64,000 bases of DNA from Candidatus Magasanikiibacteriota bacterium (GTDB taxonomy: Bacteria; Patescibacteriota; Patescibacteriia; Magasanikbacterales; GWA2-37-8), in assembly GCA_041666745.1 (NCBI GenBank), contig JBAYGI010000003.1:12782-76781 (forward strand). The letters run 5' to 3'. Position 1 is the stretch's first letter; each line of letters opens with the position of its first letter. Below the pieces are notes generated by a model. That model searched no databases, was not told where the DNA came from, and saw nothing but the letters and a program-made list of their open reading frames with translations. The translations under genes and the position numbers were made by a program. Positions 2,980-56,011 of the stretch are shown one piece after another.

Positions 2980-3108
2980 AATTTGTTTGATATACCCGTT
3001 TTCTAGTCCATCGAAGTTGTCCTAGTTGGGCTTATTTTAGATATAAAACGTGTTAATTATAACAAAAACAAAGAAAATGTCAAGGGACCACAGGCTATTT
3101 TGCTGAAA

Positions 3109-3606
3109 CTACCTCAAAACCTCCAGTTTATCCCCTATTTTGTAATTAAACTTTTGGGCGTATCCAGCCGGCAATTCCAATACTCGGTCTGATTCATCCC
3201 TAGCTGGGTACAAAGTCAACTGCTCTTCAGTTCGACCCGGTTCAAGCGGTAAATTTGGCGCTATGTCCACTATCACACCTTTTTTAAACCAAACAATATC
3301 GATTGAAAAATTCATATCACGCATCACAAACACATGTTGCTTTACTTCCGGAAACACAAACAACATACCATCATACTTGCCCAGATCTTTAAATTTACCC
3401 AATCCATTTTGCCAATGTTTGATATTGTTGGCTACCAACACATTTAGAACTTGATTGTTTATTTTTATGGTCGCTTTTGGCCAATAAAAATTATAATATA
3501 ATTTTAAACCAATAGTAAAAATGATTATCAGCCCCAAAACACACAACTGCCATTTTTTAATTTCAGATTTTTTGTTCTCTGACATATTTTTGACGTTTTG
3601 AAACAT
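3109..3606 (-). CDS. DUF192 (COG1430) domain protein with N-terminal membrane anchor
   Basis: 165 aa; DUF192-like core MLFVFPEVKQHVFVMRDMNFSIDIVW. Confidence 0.55.
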   Translation of the reverse strand: MFQNVKNMSENKKSEIKKWQLCVLGLIIIFTIGLKLYYNFYWPKATIKINNQVLNVLVANNIKHWQNGLGKFKDLGKYDGMLFVFPEVKQHVFVMRDMNFSIDIVWFKKGVIVDIAPNLPLEPGRTEEQLTLYPARDESDRVLELPAGYAQKFNYKIGDKLEVLR

Positions 3607-4669
3607 AAATCTCTATCGCAATAATAGCCACCACCAAAAGTAATAAAGAAATAATTTTAAATATACTATTCATATATAATGCCGAAAAACCAAACAACGC
3701 CGAAAAACCATAAAAAATCAATACCGCCTGCCATTGTTTGAGACCGATATCCACCAATCTAAAATGCAGATGACGGCGATCACCTTTGGCAACCGACTGA
3801 CCGTGAAACATTCGAGAAATAATTACCCAAACCAAATCCACTATCGGAACAGCCATAACCAGTAGCGCGGTCGCAATTTTACTACCGGCCACAATCGCAA
3901 GCACACCAATCATCAAACCCAAAAATTGACCACCACCTTCACCCAAAAATATTTTGGCCGGATAAAAATTTAATACCAAAAATCCTAGACAGGTCATAGC
4001 CAAAATTATCGCGATCATAGCTACATCCAATTGGTGGAATTTGGTGGCCCCACCAGCCAACGCGGCTATCGAGAATGCGCCAATCGCGACCACACCAGTC
4101 GACAAACCATCCAATCCATCCAATATTTTTACGGTATACATCATGCCCATCAACCACAAAAAAGCCAAAATATCCACTCCCACCAAAATAGTACCGAAAT
4201 ATTGAGTATGTATCTTCCAAAAATCCAAACCGATTGTTCCACCAAAGGGATTGGTGATGCCATCAAAATTTAATCCACCAGCCAATACCAACAACACCGC
4301 CACCACCGAAGCCAACAATCGCCACTGGTATTTCAAACGCACCGCATCATCAACATATCCGACAATCATCAAAATTAACCCGGCAAAAAAAATTAACCAC
4401 AATTGAGTTAATTTTAAATGGGTAAAATTATTTATTAAATTACAATACAAAACCATCATCAACCAAAAACTTACAAAAATTCCCAAACCACCAAGCAGTG
4501 GAATGGGATTTTGATGAAGCTTGCGATCTTTGTCCGGATAATCAAAAATTTTTAATTTGATCGCTAGTTTTTTAACTAAAAAAGTAACAAAAACCGACAA
4601 CCCAAACGGTAAAATAAAAACCAAAAATATAATATACAGCTGTGTCGGTAGCCAACTTGCACTTATCAT
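3563..4669 (-). CDS. Glycosyltransferase family 4, MraY/WecA-type polyprenyl-phosphate sugar-1-phosphate transferase
   Basis: 368 aa polytopic; DDxxR, VKILDGLDGL, FLGEGG and HLHF motifs paralleling MraY/WecA; position within dcw remnant favours MraY. Confidence 0.7.
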   Translation of the reverse strand: MISASWLPTQLYIIFLVFILPFGLSVFVTFLVKKLAIKLKIFDYPDKDRKLHQNPIPLLGGLGIFVSFWLMMVLYCNLINNFTHLKLTQLWLIFFAGLILMIVGYVDDAVRLKYQWRLLASVVAVLLVLAGGLNFDGITNPFGGTIGLDFWKIHTQYFGTILVGVDILAFLWLMGMMYTVKILDGLDGLSTGVVAIGAFSIAALAGGATKFHQLDVAMIAIILAMTCLGFLVLNFYPAKIFLGEGGGQFLGLMIGVLAIVAGSKIATALLVMAVPIVDLVWVIISRMFHGQSVAKGDRRHLHFRLVDIGLKQWQAVLIFYGFSALFGFSALYMNSIFKIISLLLLVVAIIAIEIYVSKRQKYVREQKI

Positions 4670-7464
4670 ACAACTTTAATTTCTCCCCCTTGACCTATTA
4701 CCACCGTATCTCTACGTTTCAGCTTACCAGATAACAACAACTCCGCCAACTGATTTTCTACTTTTTCTTGTAAAGCGCGACGCATCGGGCGGGCGCCAAA
4801 CTCCGGATCAAAGCCAACATCAGCCAAAAACTCCATCGCCGCCGGCTCTATTTTTAATTCAATACCCTTGGCTTCCAAATCTTTGGAAACACGCTTCAAC
4901 ATCAAGCCGGCAATCTTGATAATATCCTCGCGGTTCAAAGCTTTGAACAACACAATACCATCAAAACGATTTAAAAATTCAGGACGGAAATATTCTTTTA
5001 GTTCGCCGTGCAACAATTTTTCTTTGATAACATCCGATGAAACATTGGCGCGTAATTGCTCTTGAACATAAGACGTGCCGGCGTTGGAAGTGGCAATCAA
5101 AATAACATTGGTAAAATCTACCACCCGACCAACGCTATCAGACAAACGACCGTCATCCATCACCTGTAAAAATAAATTTAAAATATCTTTGTCGGCTTTT
5201 TCCATTTCATCAAGTAACAACAAAGAAAATGGATTGCGACGAATAGCTTCTGTCAACATTCCACTACCCTTTTCACCAGCCGTACCGATCAAACGAGAAA
5301 TACTGCTTTTATCTTGGTATTCACTCATATCCAAACGCACCATACGCTCTTCACCACCAAAATATACCTCCGCGATAGTCTTGGCTAATTCGGTTTTACC
5401 AACACCGGTCGGACCCAAAAACAAAAAGTTGGCAATCGGGCGCTTGGAGGATCGAATCTCCGCTCGCGCGCGACGCAGAGCATTGGCCACCAAATCTACC
5501 GCTTCGACTTGACCGATCACTCGCTTGTGCATTTCTTCTTCGAGGTGCATCAATTTGGTACTCTCATCAGCTGAAACAGTTGTGACCGGTACACCGGTTT
5601 TTTGCGCCACTACCGCGCCCACTTCTTCACCGGTAACAAAACTATTGATACCTTTTTTACTACGAGAAAAAGAAGCCGCTTCCGTCATCAGCTCTTGCGC
5701 GCTACCTGGTAAATATGACTCATGCAAAAATCGTGCCGCCAACTGAACCGACTTGGCTACCGCGTCATAAGAAAAAAATACATTTTGTTTATACTCGACT
5801 GTCCCCACTTTGGATTCCAAAACTTGAATTGCCTGATTTTCGTCCATTTCTTTTATTTCCACTTTGGCAAATAAATTTCCAAGTGGCGAACTGACAATAT
5901 GACGAGAATATTCATCCGGAGTAGTTGTGGCAAAAGTCAAAAACCGTCCACTACCAAGATATTCATTGAGAGTGCCGGCTACATCCAAACTTCCTGTTTC
6001 TCCACCAGCTGACACACCGGTTAATTCATGAATATTGTTGATAAATAAAATAACATTACCGGACCGACCAACATCTTGCATAATACCGATCAAACGCTCC
6101 ACCGCCCCAGCCGGAGTAGTCCCTGCCAATAATTTCGGCACACTCAAACGCACCAAACGTTTGTCTCGCAAACGAACCGGCACATCATCTTCTACCATTT
6201 TTTGCGCCAAACCTTCGATGATGCTGGTTTTTCCTACACCATTATCTCCAACTAAAATAACATTTTGTCCGCCCCCTTCTACAATTCTAAAAACTTCTTC
6301 GATTTCTTTTTCACGCGCGATACAACTATCCAGATGACCAAACTGCGCCGAGATTGTCAGGTCGTCACTAAAATTATTTAAAAACGGAGTCTGTACCGCT
6401 GTCATCGCTTTGTCCATACCGATTTTTGAACGTCCAACGGCGGCTTTGCGAAATTTCATATATTGACGATACAATCTCTCTCGTATTCTCGCCCACTCCA
6501 CCACGTTTAATAATTTTTGTTTGTCAACCGCTAAATCAAATAAAATTTCTTGTAATTTTTCTGACTGTTTAATAGTAGACAACAACAATTCAGTAACACT
6601 AACATATTCTTGATGGGCGCTATACGCTTCTTCGTAGGCATTGAATAATACTTGCTGAAATTCAGGTGAAATCAATGGCATTGTAAATTTATCACGTTTC
6701 TTGTCAAAAGATGGCTCAGCCCCCAAAACATTGGCCAAAGTTTTTTGCAATGAACTGGCCGGCAGAGCTAAACGAGTAAAAATATTGGAAATGCGATTGG
6801 AAGAAAGCAATGCATAAAAAAGGTGTTCAGGCGTAGCACTACCATGACCACTTTTATCTGCCACAAAATAAGCCTCGCCCAAAACCGACAACGCCTCATC
6901 GGTAAAAGTATCAGAAATATTTATTTTTTTCTTTGATTTTATTTTTTTGGCCTGTTGCCAATCCACTACATCGATTTTTTCTTCAGCACTTTCTTTATTT
7001 CCATACTGATTGTAATGATAACGTTCGACATTGTCTTTTTTGATTCTTTCGACTATCGCCCGATACCACAAATACAACAGGATTACCGCCCCAACACAAA
7101 ACAAAACACCTTCTGTGTCTTTTAAATTGTTTATCAACAAAGCGGGGTTAAAAACAATTCCTTTGCGTAAAGTAAAATAAATCCCCCACCCCCAAGCATT
7201 GAGCCATAAAAGTATGAGGGTAAAAAAACGAACTTTATTAAAAATACGATGTGCTTTGGCCAAATTCAAATGGTAACGAGTAAGTGGATAAAACCAAAAC
7301 AACCAATGCCCACGCACAAAATGACCGGCAGACATACCGCGACATTCTTTACATTTGGAAAAACCAACAAAACCGGTCGCTTTACAAACCGGACAAGATA
7401 ACAGAGATACGGATTCGGATTTCTCAAATAACATACTATTTTGAAAACGACATAATAAAACCAC
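4666..7464 (-). CDS. ClpB/ClpC-like double AAA+ ATPase with N-terminal zinc ribbon and transmembrane segment
   Basis: 932 aa; C-x2-C-x12-C-x2-C ribbon then hydrophobic helices; Clp_N-like repeat; D1 Walker A GDNGVGKTS and D2 GPTGVGKTELAK; no IGF/L ClpP loop recognised; no obvious M-domain. Confidence 0.8.
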   Translation of the reverse strand: MVLLCRFQNSMLFEKSESVSLLSCPVCKATGFVGFSKCKECRGMSAGHFVRGHWLFWFYPLTRYHLNLAKAHRIFNKVRFFTLILLWLNAWGWGIYFTLRKGIVFNPALLINNLKDTEGVLFCVGAVILLYLWYRAIVERIKKDNVERYHYNQYGNKESAEEKIDVVDWQQAKKIKSKKKINISDTFTDEALSVLGEAYFVADKSGHGSATPEHLFYALLSSNRISNIFTRLALPASSLQKTLANVLGAEPSFDKKRDKFTMPLISPEFQQVLFNAYEEAYSAHQEYVSVTELLLSTIKQSEKLQEILFDLAVDKQKLLNVVEWARIRERLYRQYMKFRKAAVGRSKIGMDKAMTAVQTPFLNNFSDDLTISAQFGHLDSCIAREKEIEEVFRIVEGGGQNVILVGDNGVGKTSIIEGLAQKMVEDDVPVRLRDKRLVRLSVPKLLAGTTPAGAVERLIGIMQDVGRSGNVILFINNIHELTGVSAGGETGSLDVAGTLNEYLGSGRFLTFATTTPDEYSRHIVSSPLGNLFAKVEIKEMDENQAIQVLESKVGTVEYKQNVFFSYDAVAKSVQLAARFLHESYLPGSAQELMTEAASFSRSKKGINSFVTGEEVGAVVAQKTGVPVTTVSADESTKLMHLEEEMHKRVIGQVEAVDLVANALRRARAEIRSSKRPIANFLFLGPTGVGKTELAKTIAEVYFGGEERMVRLDMSEYQDKSSISRLIGTAGEKGSGMLTEAIRRNPFSLLLLDEMEKADKDILNLFLQVMDDGRLSDSVGRVVDFTNVILIATSNAGTSYVQEQLRANVSSDVIKEKLLHGELKEYFRPEFLNRFDGIVLFKALNREDIIKIAGLMLKRVSKDLEAKGIELKIEPAAMEFLADVGFDPEFGARPMRRALQEKVENQLAELLLSGKLKRRDTVVIGQGGEIKVV

Positions 7465-7846
7465 CCACCACTATAATTGGCAACAATAACCAAACAATAA
7501 ATAACACCACACACACCACCAGCCAAATCAACAATCCGATGGATCGCGCGCAAAACTGCACAAATCGCATCAAAACACTGATGATTCGTCCTTGCCAATC
7601 ATATTGTCCATACATCGGTACAAATAAATTTTTCAACCACAACCCGGGGGATAAATTTTGATTGCCTTCCAAAAAGAAAGTAGTGCACCATTTTAGAGAA
7701 TGCAAAACTCCGCCGGTATACCACCAAAGCGGAAAATAAAAGATATCCACGATCGCATCAAATAAAATACGTTGAAAAACCAATAACCACATAAATATTT
7801 TATATGAGATTATTATACCACAAAATATTAAAAATAAAAAATCCAC
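7436..7846 (-). CDS. Small polytopic membrane protein (hypothetical)
   Basis: 136 aa, strongly hydrophobic; overlaps start of the AAA+ gene. Confidence 0.3.
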   Translation of the reverse strand: MDFLFLIFCGIIISYKIFMWLLVFQRILFDAIVDIFYFPLWWYTGGVLHSLKWCTTFFLEGNQNLSPGLWLKNLFVPMYGQYDWQGRIISVLMRFVQFCARSIGLLIWLVVCVVLFIVWLLLPIIVVGGFIMSFSK

Positions 7847-7876
7847 CTATCGGCGGATTTTAAACTATACAGAAAA

Positions 7877-8260
7877 CTATTTTGCCATGGCCACTGCCCC
7901 ATTGGTAGGATTGTAACGTTGAAAATCTTCAACGGCCACCAAATTCATACCTTGTAAACGTTTTTCAATATTATTCATTGAACCGGCATCAGCGATTTTG
8001 ATCTGCAAACCCTGCAAATCCGCGTTCATTTCACTAATCTGGTTTTCCAATGCATGAGCTTCATAACCACAAGTAGCCGCTGAATTTACTCGAACCATAT
8101 AGGCCACCGACATGATTACCACCACTCCTAGCAAACTAGCACGCATGGCTTTGCCACTAACCCACTCCGGCACAGTAATAGTACACAAGGCAGAAATAAA
8201 ATTGTGATAGTGGGCCTGAAATTGACGTTTATATGACATATAAAATTTAAAGTTTTTCAA
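7877..8260 (-). CDS. FtsL-like bitopic cell division protein
   Basis: 127 aa; single TM (LLGVVVIMSVAYMV) then coiled-coil; directly downstream of rsmH as in dcw clusters. Confidence 0.45.
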   Translation of the reverse strand: MKNFKFYMSYKRQFQAHYHNFISALCTITVPEWVSGKAMRASLLGVVVIMSVAYMVRVNSAATCGYEAHALENQISEMNADLQGLQIKIADAGSMNNIEKRLQGMNLVAVEDFQRYNPTNGAVAMAK

Positions 8261-9152
8261 TTATTCTTAATTTGGCACTACGACTGCTAGGATTGTTTTC
8301 GACTTCTTCCTCGCTAGCTATAATGGGTTTTTTGTTAATAATTTTTAATGTTTTATTTTGATTTTTTACAAAAAATTGTTTTACTATTCTATCTTCCAAA
8401 GAATGAAAGGTGATCACTGCCAAACGTCCGCCAACAGATAAACTTTCGATTGCTTGCGGTAAAACCTGTCGTATCACTTCCAATTCTGAATTGACCGCGA
8501 TGCGTAACGCTTGAAACACTTTGGTCGCCGGATGAATACCACCAACCCAAGGAATTTCTTTTTCAGTTTTTAATTTACGACGATAAACTCCCAAAATAAT
8601 TTCTACCAATGGCGCGGTATGTTCAATTTTATTTACCGCTCGTGATCCAACAATTTCTTTGGCAATTTCTCGACTTAATTTTTCCTCCCCATAAAAACGC
8701 AATATTTTTTCTAATTCGGCTTCACTGTATTGGTTGATAACATCCGCCGCACTCTCACCCGACACACCGTTGTAGCGCATATCTAGCGGTTCATCGCCTT
8801 CAAAACTGAATCCCCGACTACGTTCTTTGAACTGTGGTGTTGACCATCCCAAATCTATCAAAATTGCATCGGCATTTTCAAAATTATTTGCTTTGATTAT
8901 TTCTTTTAAATTTACAAAGTTGTCTCGAACAAAAATTACCTGACTACCAAAATTATATAAATTTCTTTTGGCTCTAAATAGTGATTCCGGATCAGCATCA
9001 ATGCCCAGTAATTTTCCTTTTGGACCGATTTTTTCCAAAATCACTTCGCTGTGCCCTGCATCACCCAAAGTACAATCGATCACTTTCGCGCCTGCTTTTA
9101 GTTGTAAAGAATCCACTACCTCCCTTAACAAAACCGGTACATGCCTAGACAT
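8247..9152 (-). CDS. rsmH: 16S rRNA (cytosine1402-N4)-methyltransferase RsmH
   Basis: 301 aa; MSRHVPVLLREVVD N-terminus and SAM-binding motifs of RsmH/MraW. Confidence 0.9.
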   Translation of the reverse strand: MSRHVPVLLREVVDSLQLKAGAKVIDCTLGDAGHSEVILEKIGPKGKLLGIDADPESLFRAKRNLYNFGSQVIFVRDNFVNLKEIIKANNFENADAILIDLGWSTPQFKERSRGFSFEGDEPLDMRYNGVSGESAADVINQYSEAELEKILRFYGEEKLSREIAKEIVGSRAVNKIEHTAPLVEIILGVYRRKLKTEKEIPWVGGIHPATKVFQALRIAVNSELEVIRQVLPQAIESLSVGGRLAVITFHSLEDRIVKQFFVKNQNKTLKIINKKPIIASEEEVENNPSSRSAKLRIIEKL

Positions 9153-9169
9153 ATTATTTTTTTAATTTC

Positions 9170-9619
9170 TTAAACTCCCAGCTCGGCCATCTTTTCAGCG
9201 ATTTCATTACTGTTGGTTTCAGTGGTTGTCTTGTAAGCTTTCCATTTGGCTTCATCCCAAATTTCCGCGCGATTATACAAACCAGCCAAAACAACATTTT
9301 TCTTTAAACCGGCAAACTCTCGTAAATATTCCGGTAAAACTACGCGTCCTTGCTTGTCGATTTCCACTTCCATCGCACCAGCCAACATCAAACGAGAAAA
9401 AGCACGACTGTTGGATTGACTAAACGGTAGAGTGGCCAATTTTTCGGCCAATTTTTCCCATTCGGTTTTGGTGTAGAGGAATAAACAGTTGTCTAATCCG
9501 CGTGTGACTACCGCACCCTTGGACAAATCACGACGAAACTTGACTGGAATAGCCAAACGTCCCTTATCGTCTAAGTTGTGCGCGTATTCACCGATAAACA
9601 TAATTTGTAAATTCACCAC
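9170..9619 (-). CDS. mraZ: Transcriptional regulator MraZ
   Basis: 149 aa; duplicated DxxxR-containing MraZ motif (MFIGEYAHNLDDKGRLAIP). Confidence 0.9.
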   Translation of the reverse strand: MVNLQIMFIGEYAHNLDDKGRLAIPVKFRRDLSKGAVVTRGLDNCLFLYTKTEWEKLAEKLATLPFSQSNSRAFSRLMLAGAMEVEIDKQGRVVLPEYLREFAGLKKNVVLAGLYNRAEIWDEAKWKAYKTTTETNSNEIAEKMAELGV

Positions 9620-13660: not shown

Positions 13661-13999
13661 TTATTTATGTTCATGCCCGCACCCACAAGAATCTTCCACT
13701 TTGTCCTCGCACTTCCCTTCTTCACAACATTTTTCCTCACATTTTTTGTCACCTTTACAACTGCAGACACATTCGCCACCGCAACAACTTTTTTTGCTGA
13801 AAATATAAATATATAATATTTCCAAAATACCAACTGTGTTTACCAATAATAAAACCACAAACCAAGCCACATTTCCCTTTCTGGCCGCCAACCACAAGGC
13901 TCTGCCTTTCCAATAAAATAGCCAAACAAAAAACGCGACAAAAAATATACCAAAGAAACCAAAAAAACTACCGACTCCGTAACCCATAAAATTTTGCAT
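13661..13999 (-). CDS. Small membrane protein with C-terminal cysteine-rich (metallothionein-like) tail
   Basis: 112 aa; two to three TM helices then SCCGGECVCSCKGDKKCEEKCCEEGKCEDKVEDSCGCGHEHK. Confidence 0.5.
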   Translation of the reverse strand: MQNFMGYGVGSFFGFFGIFFVAFFVWLFYWKGRALWLAARKGNVAWFVVLLLVNTVGILEILYIYIFSKKSCCGGECVCSCKGDKKCEEKCCEEGKCEDKVEDSCGCGHEHK

Positions 14000-15524: not shown

Positions 15525-16166
15525 ATGCGCCGTAATTTGGAAAATATTGAGATAGTAGAACCACCAATCGAAGAACTAACCAAAAAAAGATCATGGAAAG
15601 GAGCCTGTTTTACCAGTTGCTTGTTTTTGGTAATTCTGGCAGTAGCGGCAATTATCGGTATTCGTTTTTATGTTGGCCCCGGTCCAAAAAACAGCAATGC
15701 TATTCCAAACAATTTTCCGGCAGATATTCCAGTTTACGATAAAGATAATATCGAAAATATCACAGTCATTTCAGCTCGTTACAAAGAACGCGGTTTGAGC
15801 ATAGCCACCATCTTACCGAAATTGGTACTCTCACCGGTGTTTTACAATTCCGACAATTCCACCAATGGCGGTTCTCTACAAAATATTTGGAAAACTATTT
15901 CTACACCAAACAACAACTACCGCGATAGCATCCAAATTGAATGGCAAAATATAAACGCTGATCCGAGTTTTGTTATCGCTTATTATAAAAAAGAATTAAA
16001 AAAGAAGAATTTTAAAATTGATATCGAGTCTGAAGGGAAAACAATTCAACAATTTTCATTTAGTCGTGAAGACGGTTTGGACGGATCGGTGCTTGCCCAA
16101 GTCAATGATGAAAAAAAATCCGGTACTGATTATATGATTTTGACCATAAATTTACCCAAACAATAA
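15525..16166 (+). CDS. Membrane-anchored hypothetical protein
   Basis: 213 aa; single N-terminal TM; no family recognised. Confidence 0.4.
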   Translation: MRRNLENIEIVEPPIEELTKKRSWKGACFTSCLFLVILAVAAIIGIRFYVGPGPKNSNAIPNNFPADIPVYDKDNIENITVISARYKERGLSIATILPKLVLSPVFYNSDNSTNGGSLQNIWKTISTPNNNYRDSIQIEWQNINADPSFVIAYYKKELKKKNFKIDIESEGKTIQQFSFSREDGLDGSVLAQVNDEKKSGTDYMILTINLPKQ

Positions 16167-17782
16167 TGTTAAAAATTTTAAACTCTCAATCCAAAACCAT
16201 CACCGGAGCGGCCATTATTTTATCTGGCGCTACTTTGTTGTCTCGTTTGGTCGGAATCATTCGTGATCGAGTTTTGGCTCACTACTATGGTGCCGGTCCA
16301 GTGATGGATACTTATTACGCCGCTTTTAAAATTCCTGATCTGATTTATAGCCTATTGATTGTAGGCGCACTCACCGCCGGCTTCATCCCCACCTTCACCA
16401 GACTTCTCAGTGAAAAAGATAACAACAAACGCGCTTGGCACCTCACCAACAATCTTCTAAATATTTTGGGGTTATCCTTGATAGTATTATGTTCACTCGG
16501 TGTTATTTTTGCCCCGGTTTTAAACAAAATTATTGCCCCCGGATTTCATGGTGAAAATTTGACGCGCGTCATTTCTTTTACTCGCATCATGTTTTTATCG
16601 CCAATTTTTTTGGGTATTTCCATGATTATGGGTGGGGTGTTGCAATCACTGCGTCGTTTTGTCTTGTATGCTATTGCTCCAATTTTTTATAATTTCGGAA
16701 TTATCTTTGGAGCGACAGTATTGGTAAGACTTTTGGGAGAAAATGGTTTGGCTTGGGGAGTGGTGTTGGGAGCTGTCGTGCATTGTATTATACAAATATA
16801 CGGAACTTGGCATGTCGGCTGGCGTTTTCATTTTAGTTTTGACACCAAAGATAAAGATACCGGCACAGTTGTCAAATTGATGATACCTCGCACTTTGGGA
16901 TTGGCGATTACCCAACTGAATCAGGTCGTAGTTACCATGCTGGCCTCTTTTTTACCGGTAGGCAGTATTGCTGTTTACAACTATGCTAACAATTTACAAG
17001 CTGTACCGGTTGGAGTTTTGGCTATCCCGTTTGCACTAGCAATTTTTCCATTGCTATCTTCAGCGGCCGCCGAAAACGATATGCAACAATTCACCAATCA
17101 CCTATCCGGTGTTATTCGACAAATATTATTTTTAATTGTGCCGGCAGCCGTACTGATTTTATTACTACGAGCACAAATTGTCCGAGTAATTTTGGGTAGT
17201 GGTCAGTTTGATTGGAACGCAACTATCAACACCGCTGATGCTCTGGCTTTTTTTTCATTAGGTCTAGTCGCTCAGGCTTTGATCCCGGTATTATCACGAG
17301 CCTTTTTCGCGCTTTCCAATACCAAAACCCCATTTGTAATTGGAATAATTTCAGAATTAATTAGTATTATCGCCGCTTTGATTTTAATGAAACCGTTGGG
17401 GGCGGCCGGTTTGGCATTGGCGTGTTCAATTGGAGTTACAATCAATTTGATTTTATTATGGATAAGTTTGAGGTCAGAAACAAAAACTTTGAACGAATCG
17501 GAAATTCTATCTTTGATTTACAAAATAGCATTGGCGAGTATTGTGATGGGAATAATAGTTCAAGCTCTAAAATATCCATTAGCCAAATTATTAAACCAAC
17601 AATTTTTCTGGGGAATTTTCGGACAGGGCGCTATTGCCGGTGTAACCGGTATTGTTGTTTATTTTTCCTTGTGCTATATATTAAGGGTACCGGAATTCAT
17701 GCAACTCAAAGACAGTTTTGCCAAACGCTGGCTCAAATTACGCAATATTAATGCCACTGAAATAATTGAAAATAAGGATTAA
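16166..17782 (+). CDS. murJ: Lipid II flippase MurJ (MviN)
   Basis: 538 aa, 14 TM helices; conserved MurJ N-terminal region (GAAIILSGATLLSRLVGIIRDRVLAHYYGAG). Confidence 0.85.
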   Translation: MLKILNSQSKTITGAAIILSGATLLSRLVGIIRDRVLAHYYGAGPVMDTYYAAFKIPDLIYSLLIVGALTAGFIPTFTRLLSEKDNNKRAWHLTNNLLNILGLSLIVLCSLGVIFAPVLNKIIAPGFHGENLTRVISFTRIMFLSPIFLGISMIMGGVLQSLRRFVLYAIAPIFYNFGIIFGATVLVRLLGENGLAWGVVLGAVVHCIIQIYGTWHVGWRFHFSFDTKDKDTGTVVKLMIPRTLGLAITQLNQVVVTMLASFLPVGSIAVYNYANNLQAVPVGVLAIPFALAIFPLLSSAAAENDMQQFTNHLSGVIRQILFLIVPAAVLILLLRAQIVRVILGSGQFDWNATINTADALAFFSLGLVAQALIPVLSRAFFALSNTKTPFVIGIISELISIIAALILMKPLGAAGLALACSIGVTINLILLWISLRSETKTLNESEILSLIYKIALASIVMGIIVQALKYPLAKLLNQQFFWGIFGQGAIAGVTGIVVYFSLCYILRVPEFMQLKDSFAKRWLKLRNINATEIIENKD

Positions 17783-24865: not shown

Positions 24866-25894
24866 TTATTTACTATGAAATAACAACGCCTCTTTGTTGG
24901 CTACAGTATAATCCACTGCTTTTTGCAAACCATCTTGCAGACGAATCAGCGGCATCCAACCCAAAACTTCCTTGGCATAAGTTAAATCCGGCAAACCTTT
25001 TTTGGTCAAAAATACCAACGGTTTTTCAAAAACTATTTTGGAGGAAGATCCGGTGAGCTCAACAATCTTTTTGGCTACTTCCATATAGCTAACTACTTGA
25101 TCACCACCTAAATTGACTATTTTTACTTCCGGAACGGCGGACATCAGACGCACAAAACCATCTACCATATCACTGACATACAACAAAGAAGTAGAAATAG
25201 TTTCATCTCCATAAATAACCAAATCTTTTCCGTCCAAGGCATTGATGATAAAATCCGGAATAAGCTGTCCTTCAAACAATTTCATGCGTGGCCCATAAGT
25301 AGTAAAGACACGACCGATTTTTGCGTCAATACCATAAAATTGGCGATAAGTTTCCACACAGGTTTCGGCGAACCTTTTGCCTTCGTCGTAGCACGCACGT
25401 GGTGTCAGGTGATTTACTATACCTTGATGGGATTCCAAAAATTTGGCACCGTCTTGGGGATCACCATAAACTACCGAACTGGAAGCAAAGACATATTTCG
25501 CGCGATATTTCACTGCCAAATCCAAAGTGTTGATCATAGCCGAAGAGTTGGATAGCAATGATTTCATTTTTAATTTTTCAAAATCTTTCGGACTGGTCGG
25601 ACAAGCCAAATGATAAATTTCTTGAATACCCTGAAATTTGACTTTGAATTTGTCCAATTCATCAAATTTACTCAGGTCAAGTGGGTTGTCCACATCATAA
25701 TTGATAAATTCAAAATCCGGATATTGCAAAAGATGTTCGATGTTTTTGGGTGATGAATTCGAAAAATCATCAACACAAATTACGTTGGCTTCTTTGAGCA
25801 AACGCTCACATAAATGTGAACCGATAAAGCCGGCTCCACCGGTAACTAATATATTTTTTTTCTCAAATACAGGATTTTCCATAAGGAAAAACAT
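24866..25894 (-). CDS. NAD-dependent epimerase/dehydratase (UDP-glucuronate decarboxylase-like SDR)
   Basis: 342 aa; TGGAGFIGSHL Rossmann motif; YxxxK. Confidence 0.65.
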   Translation of the reverse strand: MFFLMENPVFEKKNILVTGGAGFIGSHLCERLLKEANVICVDDFSNSSPKNIEHLLQYPDFEFINYDVDNPLDLSKFDELDKFKVKFQGIQEIYHLACPTSPKDFEKLKMKSLLSNSSAMINTLDLAVKYRAKYVFASSSVVYGDPQDGAKFLESHQGIVNHLTPRACYDEGKRFAETCVETYRQFYGIDAKIGRVFTTYGPRMKLFEGQLIPDFIINALDGKDLVIYGDETISTSLLYVSDMVDGFVRLMSAVPEVKIVNLGGDQVVSYMEVAKKIVELTGSSSKIVFEKPLVFLTKKGLPDLTYAKEVLGWMPLIRLQDGLQKAVDYTVANKEALLFHSK

Positions 25895-26020
25895 TAATTT
25901 TTAGCCCTTATATTATAACATTTCCTCAAAAAAATGGCAACTGCAAAAAACGCCCAAAACCACCACTGGGGTTGATTTTTTAGCCAAATTATAATATACT
26001 TCAAAAATAAGATTAACTCT

Positions 26021-27373
26021 ATGTATCGTCTCAAACAACTAACTATTCTTATTGGTGACCTGATAACCCTGTATTTAGGCCTTTATTTGGCTGTATTTTT
26101 ACGTTATCTGGATGTTCCAAGCAAAGCAAATATAAACAATTTGATAGGGCATTTTTCTTGGTTGTTTTTTGTAGCCATTGTTATCGCTTTTATCAGCGGA
26201 ATCTACGACCTAGGCAAGGCCAAAAACAATTTTGCTTTATACCAAAAAATATTTTTTGCCGCGATAATTTGGACTTTGATGGGGGTTTTGTATTTCTATA
26301 TTACACCAAAAAATAATATAAACCCTAAAACTATACTGGCTTTGACTGCTTTGTGTGGATTTGGTTTGTTGTCTTTGTGGCGTTTTCTGTACAACCGTTT
26401 TGTGGCCGCTACTATTTTAAAAACCAAGGTTATCTTTGTTGGATTTTCAAATGAAGTACAAAAAATTGCTGAAATAATAATAAAGTCACCGCAAATTGGT
26501 TATGAAGTGGTCGGAGTAATAAGTTCGGAAAATTGCCCAACCAATATCCCCTGCGTGCAAAATTTAGCAGAGTTAAAAACCGTTCCCGATTTAATTGTGC
26601 TTGATTTTAATTATGAAAAAAATGAAACCGTTGTAAAAGAATTGTATCAAAAAGTTTTTCAACAGGTTAGCATTATTGATCTGGCGGATTTTTATGAAAC
26701 CATTTATCGCCGATTACCACCTTTTACTTTTTCAGAAAGTTGGTTTTTGACAAAATTCCAAGAACAATCCAAAAAAATATACGACCGTTTCCGCTTACTG
26801 ACAGATTTTATCGCGGCGGTATTGATGGCAATATTTTTTGCAATTACCTTTCCATTTATTGCTATAGCTATAAAATTAAATTCTAAAGGACCGGTTTTAT
26901 TCAAACAAGCTCGTGTTGGTCGGGGTGGTCAAATATTTTTTATTTATAAATACCGCACCATGAAAGTTTTGAACGCAGATGGTAGTGCTGAGACTAGTGG
27001 TCCACAATATGCCTCTGAAAAAGACAATCGTATTACCCTGGTCGGGAGATTTTTACGCGCTACACGTTTGGATGAAATTCCTCAATTTATCAACATCTTC
27101 AAAAACGAAATGGGGCTAATCGGACCACGACCGGAACGTCCGGAATTTGTGGATCAACTCACCAAATTGATGCCATTTTATGCATTGCGCCATTTGATAA
27201 AACCCGGATTGACCGGCTGGGCACAACTACAGCGTGGTTATTATGGTACACTGGATGAAAACTTGGGGAAACTGGAATATGATTTGTATTATATAAAAAA
27301 TCGCGGTCCATTGTTGGATATTGCGATTATTTTGAAAACTGTTAGTGTTGTTTTAGGTATGATTGGTAGATAA
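26021..27373 (+). CDS. Polyprenyl glycosylphosphotransferase (WbaP/EPS initiating sugar transferase)
   Basis: 450 aa; N-terminal TM region; C-terminal bacterial sugar transferase domain (PGLTGWAQ). Confidence 0.8.
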   Translation: MYRLKQLTILIGDLITLYLGLYLAVFLRYLDVPSKANINNLIGHFSWLFFVAIVIAFISGIYDLGKAKNNFALYQKIFFAAIIWTLMGVLYFYITPKNNINPKTILALTALCGFGLLSLWRFLYNRFVAATILKTKVIFVGFSNEVQKIAEIIIKSPQIGYEVVGVISSENCPTNIPCVQNLAELKTVPDLIVLDFNYEKNETVVKELYQKVFQQVSIIDLADFYETIYRRLPPFTFSESWFLTKFQEQSKKIYDRFRLLTDFIAAVLMAIFFAITFPFIAIAIKLNSKGPVLFKQARVGRGGQIFFIYKYRTMKVLNADGSAETSGPQYASEKDNRITLVGRFLRATRLDEIPQFINIFKNEMGLIGPRPERPEFVDQLTKLMPFYALRHLIKPGLTGWAQLQRGYYGTLDENLGKLEYDLYYIKNRGPLLDIAIILKTVSVVLGMIGR

Positions 27374-27386
27374 CAAAAACAACCAA

Positions 27387-28475
27387 CTACAACTCTATGA
27401 TGGTTTGCTCACCTACTATCAGCCGATGAAATCCGTCAGTATTTTTTTTCTTTATTTGGACATTTCCACCTACTATACTGTCTTTTATTTTCAAGTCACA
27501 GACCATGTGGCAGTTGGAAAGAATAATGGAATTCGCAATTTCTACTCCTTCAATAATACTACCGCTACCAATAGTAACATTGGGTGAAATAATACAATTT
27601 TTTAATGTACAATTTTCACCGACAATTACCGGACCGGTGATTTTTACGTTTTGATCAATTGTGGTTCCTACTCCTATTTTTACTTTACCACTAATTTGCG
27701 CGCCATCAACTACTTGTCCTAAATTTTTAAATTCACCATCCAACATTTCATCAAGCAATAGTTGGTTCGCGATAATCAAATCCTTTGGCGCGCCGGTATC
27801 TTTCCACCAGCCGGTGATTTCTTTGTGACCGACTTTGAAATTATTTTTTAGCAAATAGGAATGAATATCAGAAATTTCATATTCACCACGCGCGCTTTTA
27901 TTTATTTTAGAGAATACATCAAAAAATATTTTGGAGCCATAGAGATAAATACCGGTCTGAGCAAAATTATTTGGCGGGTTCGATGGTTTTTCCACCACAT
28001 CTATCAGATTGTCGCTTTCATCAAAAATTGGCACTCCAAAACGTTCCGGATCGGGTACTTTGGCAAAGGCCAACATACAATCATAATTATTCTGGTAAAA
28101 TTCTTCAAAAATCGGTTTTAGACTACCCAAGGTAATATTGTCGGATAGATAAAAAAGAAAAGGATCGTCACCAATAAAATCCTGAGCTTCTTTTACTACA
28201 TGAGCGATTCCTTGTGGACCACCGGTTTGTTCAAAAAATTTTATTTTAATTCCCCAATGCCCACCATCACCAATGTGTTTTTGTAAATCTGTTTCACCTG
28301 GATTGGTATTGATAAAAATTTCTTCTATACCGGCCTCTACCGCCTTGGCGATAGCGTGAAAAATCATCGGCTTGTTGGCCAGTGGTATCAGATGTTTGTT
28401 CATTGTTGAGGTTACCGGGCGCAATCTGGTTGCCCGTCCCCCTCCGGTCAAAATCGCTTTTCTGATTTTTTGCAT
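27387..28475 (-). CDS. Sugar-1-phosphate nucleotidyltransferase, long form with C-terminal left-handed beta-helix (RmlA/GlmU-like)
   Basis: Start chosen at MQKIRKAILTGGGRATRLRP (alternative upstream ATG at 28514); GGxGxRL motif; hexapeptide repeats at C-terminus. Confidence 0.7.
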   Translation of the reverse strand: MQKIRKAILTGGGRATRLRPVTSTMNKHLIPLANKPMIFHAIAKAVEAGIEEIFINTNPGETDLQKHIGDGGHWGIKIKFFEQTGGPQGIAHVVKEAQDFIGDDPFLFYLSDNITLGSLKPIFEEFYQNNYDCMLAFAKVPDPERFGVPIFDESDNLIDVVEKPSNPPNNFAQTGIYLYGSKIFFDVFSKINKSARGEYEISDIHSYLLKNNFKVGHKEITGWWKDTGAPKDLIIANQLLLDEMLDGEFKNLGQVVDGAQISGKVKIGVGTTIDQNVKITGPVIVGENCTLKNCIISPNVTIGSGSIIEGVEIANSIILSNCHMVCDLKIKDSIVGGNVQIKKKNTDGFHRLIVGEQTIIEL

Positions 28476-28480
28476 ATCAA

Positions 28481-29575: not shown

Positions 29576-29576
29576 A

Positions 29577-30413: not shown

Positions 30414-30417
30414 AAAA

Positions 30418-31485: not shown

Positions 31486-31486
31486 A

Positions 31487-32449: not shown

Positions 32450-32494
32450 TTCGCGCGGCGAAAAATAATATATATTTGGCTAAAATACTTATAA

Positions 32495-33568: not shown

Positions 33569-33577
33569 AAATAAAAA

Positions 33578-34483: not shown

Positions 34484-34484
34484 A

Positions 34485-35345: not shown

Positions 35346-35755
35346 ATTTTTTTATATTCCTCATAATCCGTAATATAATCATTTCTATCCGGATTATAAT
35401 TGGTCGAAGACAAAGCCAACAAAACACAGTCAGCCGAAGCGTCTTTGAATCCGTGCCAAACATAATTATCCACCAAAATCGCATCTTCCGGACCCCGCAT
35501 AGGCAAATCCTCCAAACCGTTTCCCCTATCAACAACCGCTGTCACCACACCACGCTGACAAACAAACAATTCCTTTTCCTCTTTGTGACAATGCTGTCCG
35601 GTATCTTTAATAAAATCAGTAACAAAATAAATACGCTTCACCTCCCAATCAATAAAATCCTTCAACTCCAACGGCGTCAACGAAATCCCAGTATTCGTAA
35701 AAGTTTTTATTTTAAATTGTCTAAAATTTAATTGCATGTTATTTAATATGATCAT
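35330..35755 (-). CDS. WxcM/FdtA-like cupin (dTDP-4-keto-6-deoxyhexose 3,4-ketoisomerase family)
   Basis: 141 aa; HCH ... cupin core; overlaps both neighbours, so translationally coupled with rmlB and rmlD. Confidence 0.5.
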   Translation of the reverse strand: MIILNNMQLNFRQFKIKTFTNTGISLTPLELKDFIDWEVKRIYFVTDFIKDTGQHCHKEEKELFVCQRGVVTAVVDRGNGLEDLPMRGPEDAILVDNYVWHGFKDASADCVLLALSSTNYNPDRNDYITDYEEYKKICQKF

Positions 35756-55978: not shown

Positions 55979-56011
55979 AATATTATTAAAAATATTTTTA
56001 CTATTTAAAAA

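What the first reader, a model, noticed from the sequence alone, without database searches (positions are those of the whole stretch)
4666..7846. Membrane-anchored zinc-ribbon ClpB-like double AAA+ ATPase embedded in the dcw remnant
In the order mraZ-rsmH-ftsL-(136-aa membrane protein)-AAA+-MraY-like, the positions normally held by ftsI and the mur genes are occupied by a 932-aa Clp/Hsp100-type ATPase. Its N-terminus has a C-x2-C-x12-C-x2-C zinc ribbon and transmembrane helices before the Clp_N repeat. It has no ClpP-docking IGF/L loop and no clear M-domain. A membrane-tethered unfoldase co-transcribed with the division and wall genes would be an unusual arrangement and could act on the envelope or divisome.
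Basis: partly seen in the sequence, partly recalled or inferred. Interest (0 to 1): 0.6.

Follow-up and report, generated by a model that had tools for sequence, protein, structure and literature searches.

The report
Membrane-anchored, pore-loop-less ClpC-like ATPase
This Candidatus Magasanikbacteria gene encodes a membrane-tethered relative of the ClpC/ClpB protein-unfolding machines that has lost the parts needed for unfolding and protease docking but keeps one working ATPase ring and a dedicated small membrane partner. It represents a widespread, undescribed protein family in the candidate phyla radiation (CPR, Patescibacteria).

Summary
The ATPase is 922 aa, starting at ATG 7434. The zinc motif is CxxC-x10-CxxC. 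The upstream membrane gene is 118 aa. The downstream GT4 is WecA-like, not a true MraY.

The protein reads: DnaJ-type zinc knuckle, two-helix membrane hairpin, Clp_N, D1, D2, D2-small. It has no M-domain and no ClpP loop.

The main new result comes from 38 relatives at 37-89% identity.
- D1 is catalytically dead: no Walker B DE in any, and no arginine fingers in 37 of 38.
- D2 keeps every catalytic motif.
- Both axial pore loops lack the aromatic residue in all 38.

A canonical threading unfoldase is therefore unlikely.

The gene is translationally coupled to a conserved 118-aa membrane protein (about 2,960 clusters, no Pfam) and to the GT4 and DUF192 genes. Relatives that lost D2 also lack the partner.

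Linkage to mraZ-rsmH-ftsL is lineage-specific. A conserved terminator-like hairpin and an invariant extended -10 separate ftsL from this operon.

Best reading: a Patescibacteria-specific, D2-driven membrane remodelling or switch ATPase that works with its partner in an envelope operon, functionally closest to Torsin. Databases label it ClpC/ClpA, and I found no paper describing it. The function is inferred, not shown.

The parts
4666..7434 (-). 922-aa membrane-anchored ClpC-like double AAA+ protein. The mechanical ORF extends to GTG 7464.
   Evidence: Pfam Clp_N, AAA_lid_9, AAA_2 and ClpB_D2-small. Best PDB sequence match is ClpC, 4.4e-132. A 100% identical 922-aa protein is P0241. AlphaFold2 mean pLDDT is 83.5. 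Top Foldseek hits are ClpC, ClpC1 and ClpB.
7342..7395 (-). Zinc knuckle, residues 14-31: CPVCKATGFVGFSKCKEC, i.e. CxxC-x10-CxxC of the DnaJ CxxCxGxG type.
   Evidence: All four Cys are invariant in 59 sequences. PF00684 DnaJ_CXXCXGXG ranks first or second for 6 of 6 family N-termini, E 2.5e-4 to 1.2e-2, below the gathering score. AlphaFold2 predicts beta strands at 12-46.
7168..7227 (-). Predicted transmembrane helix 1, residues 70-89.
   Evidence: Hessa-scale dG +1.7 kcal/mol. A hydrophobic segment lies at this position in all 38 relatives. It falls within AlphaFold2 helix 53-90. The preceding flank has 5 Lys/Arg and no acidic residue.
7048..7110 (-). Predicted transmembrane helix 2, residues 109-129.
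   Evidence: Hessa-scale dG +0.1 kcal/mol. A matching second hydrophobic segment is present in 35 of 38 relatives. It falls within AlphaFold2 helix 107-131. It is followed by a Lys-rich linker with 12 Lys/Arg in 46 residues.
6535..6909 (-). Clp_N-type N-domain, about residues 176-300.
   Evidence: PF02861, E 7.7e-7. It aligns to ClpC residues 5-140.
5641..6381 (-). D1 AAA+ module, about residues 352-598, catalytically degenerate. Walker B ILFINNIH, pore loop GTTPAGAVE, Arg-finger site GNLF.
   Evidence: Alignment to B. subtilis ClpC. Family-wide motif table of 38 sequences.
4696..5562 (-). D2 AAA+ module plus D2-small, about residues 625-913. All catalytic motifs are intact, but the pore loop is shortened to GTAGEKGSGM with no aromatic residue. 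There is no ClpP-docking tripeptide.
   Evidence: PF07724, 2.3e-52, and PF10431, 5.3e-26. Residue-level alignments.
7436..7792 (-). 118-aa membrane partner gene. Its stop codon lies 1 nt before the ATPase start (TAGTATG).
   Evidence: It lies immediately upstream of the ATPase in 22 of 23 loci that carry a full-length ATPase, and in 0 of 5 D1-only loci. Conserved motifs are YxPxWWYxxG and WxxNxFxPM[YF]GQxDxxGR. About 2,962 clusters, all 'hypothetical', no Pfam. AlphaFold2 pLDDT 90.3: an alpha hairpin with a C-terminal TM. One strong TM at 85-103, dG -5.8.
7838..7861 (-). Terminator-like hairpin plus T-run directly after ftsL.
   Evidence: Pattern scan. RNA fold of the 88-nt intergenic stretch 7793-7880 that contains the hairpin gives -19.6 kcal/mol, z = -3.75. 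The hairpin is kept in 95% of cells across 6 relatives, but only one pair shows a change on both sides, so covariation is not significant.
7812..7820 (-). Extended -10 promoter-like element TGGTATAAT, about 20 nt upstream of the partner ATG.
   Evidence: Read directly from the sequence. Invariant in 6 aligned relatives. The consensus scan did not list it because no -35 match is present.
3563..4669 (-). GT4 polyprenyl-phosphate sugar-phosphate transferase, WecA/TagO-like. Its ATG overlaps the ATPase stop codon (ATGA).
   Evidence: PF00953, 2e-25. TIGR02380 WecA 99.8 bits, archaeal MraY-like 87 bits, MraY 53 bits, all below cut-offs. Weak PDB hits to MraY and DPAGT1. Found downstream of the ATPase in 19 of 23 full-length loci and 4 of 5 D1-only loci.
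3109..3606 (-). DUF192 (COG1430) gene with an N-terminal hydrophobic segment. It is the last gene of the operon and overlaps the GT4 3' end.
   Evidence: PF02643, 3.3e-21. Conserved after GT4 in most loci. A perfect sigma-70-like promoter for rplU follows at 3083-3056.
7877..9619 (-). Upstream mraZ (9170-9619), rsmH (8247-9152) and FtsL-like gene (7877-8260). These are neighbours but probably a separate transcription unit.
   Evidence: Pfam and NCBIfam. Upstream of the module in 15 of the 28 loci and not upstream in 5 that hold enough flanking sequence (L015, L021, L022, L023, L027).

Best explanation
The locus encodes a Patescibacteria-specific two-gene membrane module inside a four-gene envelope operon: partner, ATPase, WecA-like GT4, DUF192.

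The 922-aa protein derives from ClpC-type Hsp100 ATPases. A two-helix hairpin anchors it in the cytoplasmic membrane with both ends inside. The DnaJ-type zinc knuckle, the Clp_N domain and both AAA+ rings therefore face the cytoplasm.

D1 is a non-catalytic structural ring. D2 is the only motor.

Both axial pore loops have lost their aromatic and hydrophobic paddles. The ClpP loop and the M-domain are also absent. The protein is therefore most likely not a processive unfoldase, disaggregase or protease partner.

It more likely uses D2 ATP binding and hydrolysis as a conformational switch or local remodelling step. The target would be its 118-aa partner and/or co-expressed envelope proteins such as the GT4 enzyme, at the inner face of the membrane. 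This resembles how Torsin ATPases work with membrane cofactors.

Shown: the domain architecture, the motif states, family-wide conservation, the partner linkage and the operon structure. Inferred: hexamer formation, topology, non-threading action, partner interaction and the link to the envelope.
For: Architecture and homology.

Motif states across 38 relatives at 37-89% identity:
- D1 has no Walker B DE in 38 of 38.
- D1 lacks the ERRF arginine fingers in 37 of 38.
- The D1 Walker A Thr/Ser is variable.
- D2 Walker A, Walker B, sensor 1, Arg finger and sensor 2 are conserved in all.
- The pore-loop Tyr is absent from D1 and D2 in 38 of 38.
- The D2 loop carries a 4-6 residue deletion in 35 of 38.
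- No VGF/IGF-type loop is present.

Membrane anchoring.

Partner linkage:
- Stop and start codons are 1 nt apart.
- The partner is present in 22 of 23 loci with D2 and 0 of 5 D1-only loci.
- The partner family is large and unannotated.
- Its model is confident, pLDDT 90.3.

Operon:
- ATGA overlap with GT4, and GT4 overlaps DUF192.
- The same order and overlaps occur in the distant locus L018.
- The same genes follow in L023 with one extra ORF.
- A terminator-like hairpin plus an invariant extended -10 lie upstream.
- The rplU promoter lies downstream.

Precedent: Torsins are Clp/Hsp100-related, membrane-associated, lack aromatic pore loops and depend on membrane cofactors (PMC5441..., correctly PMC5425593). 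The pore-loop Tyr and the flanking hydrophobic residue are required for Hsp104 threading (PMC5741831).
Against: - No experiment exists and no direct test of interaction was possible.
- D2 keeps its Arg finger, unlike Torsin, so the analogy is functional only.
- A hydrophobic residue (M/V/I/L/Y/F in most members; H in two, Q in one) always precedes the conserved LTE at the end of the shortened D2 loop. It could still contact a substrate in the pore.
- Retention of Clp_N and a DnaJ-like zinc module suggests polypeptide clients.
- Conserved gene order also includes clearly unrelated genes (rplU, recR, ybaB, dnaB). Part of the GT4 adjacency may therefore be inherited synteny rather than functional coupling.
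- The co-loss of partner and D2 may be a single evolutionary event.
- Topology was not checked with a dedicated predictor.
Confidence: 0.5

Rival explanations
1. One reading: a genuine membrane-tethered protein unfoldase or extractase. It would pull divisome or envelope membrane proteins through its pore using non-canonical pore loops. Clients would be recruited by the zinc knuckle and Clp_N.
For: All D2 catalytic residues and the ring-forming D2-small domain are conserved. Two putative client-binding modules are conserved. A hydrophobic residue flanks the shortened D2 loop in most members. In ClpA, D2 is the stronger motor and can work with an impaired D1 (PMC7568338). Hsp104 work suggests that hydrophobicity, rather than tyrosine itself, is what matters (PMC5741831).
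Against: No aromatic residue is found in either pore loop in 38 of 38 members. The D2 loop is Gly-rich and hydrophilic and is shortened by 4-6 residues in 35 of 38. In Hsp104, replacing the hydrophobic loop-3 residue with Gly abolishes disaggregation. D1-only orthologues persist in the same genomic slot without any motor.
Confidence: 0.25
2. Mainly a scaffold or regulator of the adjacent WecA-like GT4 enzyme, which initiates a lipid-linked glycan. The core function would reside in the zinc knuckle, TM hairpin, Clp_N and dead D1. D2 and the partner would be an optional ATP-dependent regulatory add-on.
For: GT4 lies directly downstream, often overlapping, in 19 of 23 full-length and 4 of 5 D1-only loci across divergent lineages. 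D1-only orthologues keep the N-terminal module and the GT4 adjacency but have lost D2 and the partner.
Against: GT4 is absent next to the gene in L008, L021, L022 and L024. The conserved neighbourhood also contains unrelated genes (rplU, recR, ybaB, dnaB), so adjacency may be inherited gene order. There is no interaction evidence.
Confidence: 0.15
3. A divisome component of these bacteria that functionally replaces genes normally found after ftsL in the dcw cluster.
For: It lies directly after mraZ-rsmH-ftsL in 15 of the 28 loci, including a distant lineage (L018), and after a Mur ligase in L021 and L022.
Against: A terminator-like hairpin and its own promoter-like element separate it from ftsL. 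Opposite-strand insertions occur in L013 and L014. No dcw genes lie upstream in L015, L023 or L027. FtsW/RodA and MurJ are present elsewhere in the window, so wall synthesis is not missing.
Confidence: 0.08
4. A decaying ClpC paralogue, or an ordinary ClpC/ClpA chaperone as databases label it.
For: Automatic annotations call it 'ATP-dependent Clp protease ATP-binding subunit ClpC/ClpA'.
Against: Scores fall below every NCBIfam equivalog cut-off. It has no ClpP loop, no M-domain, a dead D1 and no pore-loop Tyr. It is an intact full-length ORF with invariant D2 motifs and a conserved N-terminal module down to about 37% identity, which indicates purifying selection.
Confidence: 0.03

Closest known systems
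ClpC / ClpC1 (B. subtilis, S. aureus, M. tuberculosis)
   Same: Best sequence match (445 bits) and best structural match (Foldseek E 5e-60; D1-D2 target-normalised TM about 0.8). Same order of Clp_N, D1, D2 and D2-small.
   Different: No M-domain: about 56 ClpC residues have no counterpart. No VGF ClpP-docking loop. D1 Walker B and Arg fingers are lost. Both pore-loop tyrosines are lost. An N-terminal zinc knuckle and TM hairpin are added. It has a dedicated membrane partner.
ClpA
   Same: A double ring without an M-domain. The TIGR02639 model aligns in one continuous stretch, residues 193-923.
   Different: 523 bits against a cut-off of 993. No IGL loop for ClpP. Degenerate D1 and pore loops. 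Membrane anchor.
ClpB / Hsp104
   Same: A protease-independent Hsp100 with no ClpP loop. Strong D2 similarity.
   Different: It lacks the coiled-coil M-domain that couples to DnaK/Hsp70. It lacks the pore-loop tyrosines required for disaggregation (PMC5741831). 574.6 bits against a cut-off of 1232.
Torsin ATPases with LAP1/LULL1 cofactors (eukaryotic ER and nuclear envelope)
   Same: A Clp/Hsp100-related AAA+ module that is membrane-associated through an N-terminal hydrophobic region, lacks aromatic pore loops and works with membrane-anchored partner proteins (PMC5425593).
   Different: Torsins have a single AAA+ module and lack the Arg finger, which the cofactor supplies. Here the D2 Arg finger is retained, a dead D1 ring is present, and the partner is a small helical hairpin rather than a degenerate AAA+ fold. 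The resemblance is an analogy, not shared family membership.
ClpX and ClpE N-terminal zinc-binding domains; DnaJ cysteine-rich domain
   Same: A Cys4 zinc module at the N-terminus of a Clp ATPase has precedent (my own knowledge of ClpX and ClpE). The motif here resembles one DnaJ CxxCxGxG zinc centre.
   Different: It falls below the Pfam threshold. It has one zinc centre only. It is followed by a TM hairpin, which ClpX and ClpE lack.
FtsH
   Same: A bacterial AAA+ protein anchored by two TM helices per subunit, with the ATPase in the cytoplasm (my own knowledge).
   Different: FtsH belongs to the classical AAA clade, has one ring, an aromatic pore loop and a fused metalloprotease. None of these applies here.

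Membership tests
Clp/Hsp100 class 1 (double-ring) ATPases | Clp_N domain, two AAA+ modules and a C-terminal D2-small domain | tested here: met
   Pfam PF02861, PF17871, PF07724 and PF10431. Alignment to ClpC. Foldseek top hits are ClpC and ClpB.
Clp/Hsp100 class 1 (double-ring) ATPases | Catalytically competent D1 (Walker B hhhhDE, Arg fingers) | tested here: not met
   ILFINNIH replaces ILFIDELH, and GNLF replaces ERRF. DE is absent in 38 of 38 relatives and the fingers are absent in 37 of 38.
Clp/Hsp100 class 1 (double-ring) ATPases | Aromatic pore loops: KYR in D1 and GYVG in D2 | tested here: not met
   D1 reads GTTPAGAVE. D2 reads GTAGEKGSGM with a 4-residue deletion. No aromatic residue is present in 38 of 38 relatives.
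ClpC | Half-length M-domain (MecA and regulatory linker) between D1 and D2 | tested here: not met
   ClpC residues about 405-460 have no counterpart. Query residues 591-592 join the two aligned blocks.
ClpC / ClpA / ClpX (ClpP partners) | ClpP-docking hydrophobic-Gly-Phe/Leu loop in the last AAA+ module | tested here: not met
   ClpC KYVGFNV aligns to QLRANVS. No such tripeptide is present in 38 relatives.
ClpB (TIGR03346) | Equivalog score cut-off and a full M-domain | tested here: not met
   574.6 bits against a cut-off of 1232.1. The match splits into two stretches around the missing M-domain.
ClpA (TIGR02639) | Equivalog score cut-off | tested here: not met
   523.2 bits against a cut-off of 993.15.
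ClpV/TssH (TIGR03345) | Equivalog score cut-off and a type VI secretion gene context | tested here: not met
   460 bits against a cut-off of 884.95. No T6SS genes were seen in the Pfam scans of the window.
DnaJ cysteine-rich zinc finger (PF00684) | CxxCxGxG repeats forming a zinc centre | tested here: inconclusive
   It ranks first or second for 6 of 6 family N-termini, at 16-22 bits against a gathering score of 32.7. The four Cys are invariant.
Integral membrane protein (two-TM hairpin) | Two membrane-spanning helices with positive-inside flanks | tested here: met
   Hessa-scale dG +1.7 and +0.1 kcal/mol against +9.6 for ClpC. In 35 of 38 relatives the two most hydrophobic windows fall at these positions. 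AlphaFold2 helices 53-90 and 107-131. No dedicated topology predictor was available.
dcw (division and cell wall) cluster | mraZ-rsmH-ftsL followed by ftsI and mur genes in one transcription unit | tested here: inconclusive
   mraZ and rsmH are clear, and ftsL is weak. No ftsI or mur gene lies in the block. A terminator-like hairpin plus a promoter-like element follow ftsL. The upstream context varies across relatives.
MraY (TIGR00445) | Equivalog score cut-off | tested here: not met
   The downstream GT4 scores 53.3 bits against a cut-off of 192. WecA scores higher at 99.8 bits, also below its cut-off.
Torsin-like systems | AAA+ module lacking its Arg finger, which a membrane cofactor complements | tested here: not met
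   The D2 Arg-finger motif RPEFLNRFD is conserved in all 38. The other Torsin traits (no aromatic pore loop, membrane association, membrane partner) are present. This supports 'works like', not 'is a'.
Anti-phage defence systems (PADLOC) | Match of the ATPase and its neighbours to defence-system models | tested here: not met
   Only generic D2-domain hits (PDC-M37B 119 bits, DolB 101 bits). The partner, GT4 and DUF192 give no hit.

The most novel reading that the evidence does not exclude
The 118-aa helical-hairpin membrane protein and the pore-loop-less ATPase form a CPR-specific membrane-remodelling machine. A hexameric ring held by 12 or more TM helices would use D2 ATP hydrolysis to assemble, disassemble or gate an oligomer of the partner. 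This would be analogous to Torsin with LAP1 or to Vps4 with ESCRT-III. It would be a new bacterial mechanism for envelope growth or division in ultra-small cells. The partner's best fold matches, which are not significant, are PspA/Vipp1 hairpins (E 1.6). The evidence does not exclude this reading but does not support it directly.
Probability: 0.1. Interest if true: 0.85.

Novelty: new variant of a known kind. Interest (0 to 1): 0.62.

Why it matters
Hsp100/Clp ATPases are textbook threading machines. This family, found in several Patescibacteria lineages (Magasanikbacteria, Falkowbacteria, Komeilibacteria and others), keeps the scaffold and one active ring but has discarded the threading paddles, the protease dock and the Hsp70-coupling domain. 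It has also gained a membrane anchor, a zinc knuckle and an obligate membrane partner.

If confirmed, it would be a bacterial counterpart to the poorly understood Torsin type of AAA+ action. It would also be a CPR-specific envelope factor.

On the practical side, hundreds of database entries labelled 'ClpC/ClpA, ATP-dependent Clp protease subunit' are probably mis-annotated. Metabolic and proteostasis reconstructions of CPR genomes that count them as Clp chaperones would then be wrong.

Tried and rejected
- A word-indexed homologue search with the N-terminal 225 aa found only 3 proteins. The exhaustive profile search was needed to see the family: 101 representatives.
- Foldseek of the partner model against the PDB gave nothing significant, best E 1.6.
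- Profile searches of the N-terminal module and of the partner against PDB sequences gave nothing, all E above 0.8.
- I checked whether the 1-1.7 kb inserts between ftsL and the partner in L013 and L014 encode FtsI. They do not: each holds an opposite-strand ORF of about 180 aa with no Pfam hit, and L013 also has a 249-aa same-strand ORF with none.
- I checked for an anti-phage defence origin. It is rejected.
- Six literature searches found no description of this family.
- I could not determine whether the same genome also encodes canonical ClpB, ClpC, ClpX or ClpP.
- Covariation support for the terminator hairpin is weak: 6 close sequences and one pair changed on both sides.

Full report
**What is there**

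The minus strand of window 3109-9619 carries the following genes.

| Coordinates | Gene | Evidence |
|---|---|---|
| 9170-9619 | mraZ | PF02381, 1.7e-42 |
| 8247-9152 | rsmH | PF01795, 7.6e-103 |
| 7877-8260 | 127-aa bitopic FtsL-like protein | weak NF053549 hit, E 0.0017 |
| 7436-7792 | small membrane protein | no Pfam or NCBIfam hit |
| 4666-7434 | double AAA+ protein | Clp_N, AAA_lid_9, AAA_2, ClpB_D2-small |
| 3563-4669 | GT4 transferase | PF00953 |
| 3109-3606 | DUF192 | PF02643 |

The organism is a Candidatus Magasanikbacteria bacterium, a member of the candidate phyla radiation.

Four details need correction.
- The ATPase starts at ATG 7434 and is 922 aa. A 100% identical 922-aa protein, P0241, is in public databases.
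- The zinc motif is C14-x2-C17-x10-C28-x2-C31.
- The small membrane gene most likely starts at ATG 7792 and is 118 aa, like its 112-128-aa homologues.
- The GT4 gene resembles WecA (99.8 bits) more than MraY (53.3 bits against a cut-off of 192).

**Anatomy of the ATPase**

The domain calls come from Pfam and from residue-level alignment to B. subtilis ClpC, which at 4.4e-132 is the best PDB relative.

| Residues | Feature |
|---|---|
| 14-31 | zinc knuckle |
| 70-89 and 109-129 | two hydrophobic helices |
| about 130-175 | Lys-rich linker |
| about 176-300 | Clp_N |
| about 352-598 | D1 |
| about 625-825 | D2 |
| about 833-913 | D2-small |

About 56 residues of the ClpC M-domain have no counterpart. 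The ClpP-docking VGF loop of ClpC aligns to LRANV. NCBIfam agrees: the ClpA model, which has no M-domain, matches in one stretch, while the ClpB models match in two. All equivalog cut-offs are missed by a wide margin.

An AlphaFold2 model built on 59 family sequences has mean pLDDT 83.5 and pTM 0.73. It shows short beta strands at 12-46, then helices 53-90 and 107-131, then a ClpC-like body. Foldseek returns ClpC, ClpC1 and ClpB structures, top E 5e-60.

**Membrane anchoring**

On the Hessa biological hydrophobicity scale the two segments sum to +1.7 and +0.1 kcal/mol over 19 residues. The best window anywhere in ClpC scores +9.6. In 35 of 38 relatives the two most hydrophobic windows of the whole protein fall at the same two positions; in the remaining three the second segment is weak or displaced.

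The flanks are basic: 5 Lys/Arg and no acidic residue before TM1, and 12 Lys/Arg in 46 residues after TM2. The roughly 20-residue connecting loop is nearly neutral (3 Lys/Arg, 2 acidic). This fits an N-in/C-in hairpin with all soluble domains in the cytoplasm. The topology is an inference. No dedicated predictor was available.

**The key new finding: motif states across the family**

I aligned the window protein with three sets of sequences: 16 orthologues from genome assemblies, 21 distant full-length representatives found with an N-terminal profile, and ClpC as reference.

D1:
- The Walker B DE is absent in 38 of 38. The window protein has ILFINNIH.
- The ERRF arginine fingers are absent in 37 of 38.
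- The Walker A Thr/Ser varies widely (GKT, GKN, GKG, GKK, GKR, GKM, GMS, GRT).
- The pore-loop KYR is replaced by TPA-type sequences in all.

D2:
- GPTGVGKT, LLLDExEKA, TSNAG, RPEFLNRFD and GARPxRR are essentially invariant.
- The GYVGY pore loop is replaced by a Gly-rich, hydrophilic stretch with no GYVG motif in any member. It is 4-6 residues shorter in 35 of 38. The window protein has GTAGEKGSGM.

The flanking residues align unambiguously, so this is not an alignment artefact.

The family therefore has a dead structural D1 ring and a catalytically intact D2 ring. It lacks the elements that Hsp100 proteins use to grip and thread polypeptides. In Hsp104 these pore-loop residues are essential for substrate binding and disaggregation, and replacing the hydrophobic neighbour of the D2 tyrosine with glycine abolishes function (PMC5741831).

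**The partner protein**

The 118-aa gene ends 1 nt before the ATPase start (TAGTATG). A homologue lies immediately upstream of the ATPase in 22 of 23 loci that carry a full-length ATPase. These include lineages where the ATPase N-terminus is barely recognisable.

Invariant or near-invariant residues are D16, Y19, P21, W23, W24, Y25, G28, W52, N55, F57, P59, M60, G62, Q63, D65, G68, R69, S72, R76 and R83. A profile search finds about 2,962 clusters. All are 'hypothetical', none has a Pfam domain, and the named ones are from Patescibacteria.

AlphaFold2 gives a confident model, pLDDT 90.3. It is a long alpha-helical hairpin (helices 2-47 and 66-117) joined by the conserved FVPMYGQYDW loop. Only residues 85-103 form a strong TM segment, dG -5.8. 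There is no significant structural or sequence relative in the PDB.

**A D2-less subgroup**

A set of roughly 600-aa proteins carries the zinc knuckle, TM hairpin, Clp_N and D1, and ends naturally at '...VPYTKILK'. One cluster member is labelled Candidatus Falkowbacteria.

They occupy the same genomic slot...[gene]-GT4-L21...RecR-YbaB. None of the five loci has the partner gene or a D2. Partner and D2 are thus present together or absent together, 22 of 23 against 0 of 5. This may reflect a single loss event.

The subgroup suggests two things. The partner works with the D2 motor. The N-terminal half has a role that does not need ATP hydrolysis.

**Operon and neighbourhood**

- The ATPase stop overlaps the GT4 start (ATGA), and GT4 overlaps DUF192.
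- The same partner-ATPase-GT4-DUF192 order, with overlaps, recurs in the distant locus L018. In L023 the same genes follow with one extra ORF between ATPase and GT4.
- Downstream, a 12-of-12 sigma-70-like promoter (3083-3056) precedes rplU.
- Upstream, a hairpin plus T-run (7861-7838) follows ftsL directly. The 88-nt intergenic stretch containing it folds at -19.6 kcal/mol, z = -3.75. The hairpin is kept in 95% of cells in six relatives, although covariation is too sparse to be significant.
- An invariant TGGTATAAT (7820-7812) lies about 20 nt before the partner ATG.

The module is therefore probably its own transcription unit. Read-through from ftsL cannot be excluded.

Across the 28 loci, mraZ and rsmH lie upstream in 15. 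They are absent in L015 (TPR and NUDIX genes), L021 and L022 (Mur ligase), L023 (ATP synthase operon) and L027 (DnaJ, signal peptidase). L013 and L014 have an opposite-strand ORF inserted after ftsL. GT4 follows the ATPase in 19 of 23 full-length and 4 of 5 D1-only loci.

Unrelated genes (rplU, recR, ybaB, dnaB) are conserved alongside. Gene order alone is therefore weak functional evidence. The overlapping reading frames are the stronger argument for co-expression with GT4 and DUF192.

The window also holds MurJ (16166-17782), FtsW/RodA (36934-38031), an SLT transglycosylase and large glycan-synthesis clusters. Wall synthesis genes exist but are dispersed.

**The zinc module**

PF00684 (DnaJ CxxCxGxG) ranks first or second for six of six family N-termini, at E 2.5e-4 to 1.2e-2. 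This is below the gathering score. Many members show clean CxxCxGxG pairs, for example CPICKGTG...CKECQGIG. I treat it as a single DnaJ-type zinc centre, with membership inconclusive. From my own knowledge, N-terminal zinc modules have precedents in ClpX and ClpE.

**Mechanism**

Most likely, at about 0.5: a membrane-bound oligomer in which D1 provides assembly and D2 provides an ATP-driven conformational cycle. It would act on the partner and/or co-expressed envelope proteins at the cytoplasmic membrane face without processive threading.

The closest functional analogy is Torsin. Torsins are Clp/Hsp100-related, membrane-associated, lack aromatic pore loops and depend on membrane cofactors (PMC5425593). 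Unlike Torsin, this D2 keeps its own arginine finger.

Rivals:
- A true unfoldase with unconventional pore loops, 0.25. This is supported by the intact D2, by client-binding-type domains and by a hydrophobic residue next to the shortened loop in most members.
- Mainly a scaffold or regulator of the GT4 enzyme, 0.15.
- A divisome component, 0.08.
- An ordinary or decaying ClpC, 0.03.

**Novelty**

Public databases label these proteins 'ATP-dependent Clp protease ATP-binding subunit ClpC/ClpA', 'AAA family ATPase' or 'chaperone ATPase'. Six full-text searches found no paper describing the architecture, the degenerate motifs or the partner.

It is a new variant of a known kind, Hsp100/Clp. It is distinctive enough that the current labels are likely misleading.

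**Limits**

- There is no experimental data.
- Topology and oligomeric state are inferred.
- Whether canonical Clp chaperones coexist in the same genome is unknown.
- The family's full taxonomic range was sampled, not surveyed.

Noticed in passing
window 53315-58681 (-): Two adjacent large ORFs of 887 and 889 aa have no Pfam hit at E<=1e-5. They lie in a markedly AT-rich stretch (GC 28-30% against about 38% elsewhere) inside a glycan-synthesis region. They could be paralogous surface or envelope proteins, or foreign DNA.
   Followed up: no
window 24866-36752 and 43727-63972 (mostly -): Very large polysaccharide and glycan biosynthesis clusters fill most of the rest of the window. They include several GT2 and GT1/GT4 enzymes, epimerases and dehydratases, RmlD, a nucleotidyltransferase, a Bac_transf initiating transferase at 26021-27373 (+), UDP-glucose dehydrogenase, and a GT87-FkbM methyltransferase fusion at 61326-63302.
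   Followed up: partly
window 39598-43023 (-): A 1141-aa ORF whose only Pfam hit is a lamin-tail domain (LTD, 2.8e-8). Probably a large surface protein.
   Followed up: no
window 13661-13999 (-): A 112-aa ORF with two hydrophobic segments and an extremely Cys-rich acidic tail (CCGGECVCSCKGDKKCEEKCCEEGKCEDKVEDSCGCGHEH). Possibly a metal-binding membrane protein.
   Followed up: no
window 7793-7876 (-); L001, L003, L004, L005, L017 equivalents: The ftsL-partner intergenic region is strikingly conserved. A hairpin plus T-run is followed by an invariant TGTGGTATAATAAT block, which suggests a terminator and promoter pair or an attenuator between the dcw genes and the ATPase operon.
   Followed up: partly
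L019, L025, L026, L027, L028 (proteins P0042, P0051, P0059, P0075): Orthologues of about 600 aa keep the zinc knuckle, TM hairpin, Clp_N and the dead D1, but end before D2 and have no partner gene. They sit in the same genomic slot next to GT4 and rplU. In L026-L028 a signal peptidase S26 gene lies directly upstream (truncated at the locus edge in L028).
   Followed up: partly
L004, L005, L008, L010, L012, L013, L015; P0190, P0319: Several contigs that carry clearly Magasanikbacteria-type loci are deposited as 'uncultured Gammaproteobacteria bacterium' or 'Candidatus Udaeobacter sp.' MAGs. These are probably mis-binned or mislabelled.
   Followed up: no
window 3056-3083 (-): A perfect sigma-70 consensus promoter (TTGACA, 16 nt, TG-TATAAT; 12 of 12 matches) lies directly upstream of rplU.
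   Followed up: no
L024 1-1662 (+): In one distant family member (P0089) the gene upstream of the ATPase is a VirD4/TraG-like coupling protein whose end overlaps the ATPase start. There is no partner gene. This may be a mobile-element context.
   Followed up: no
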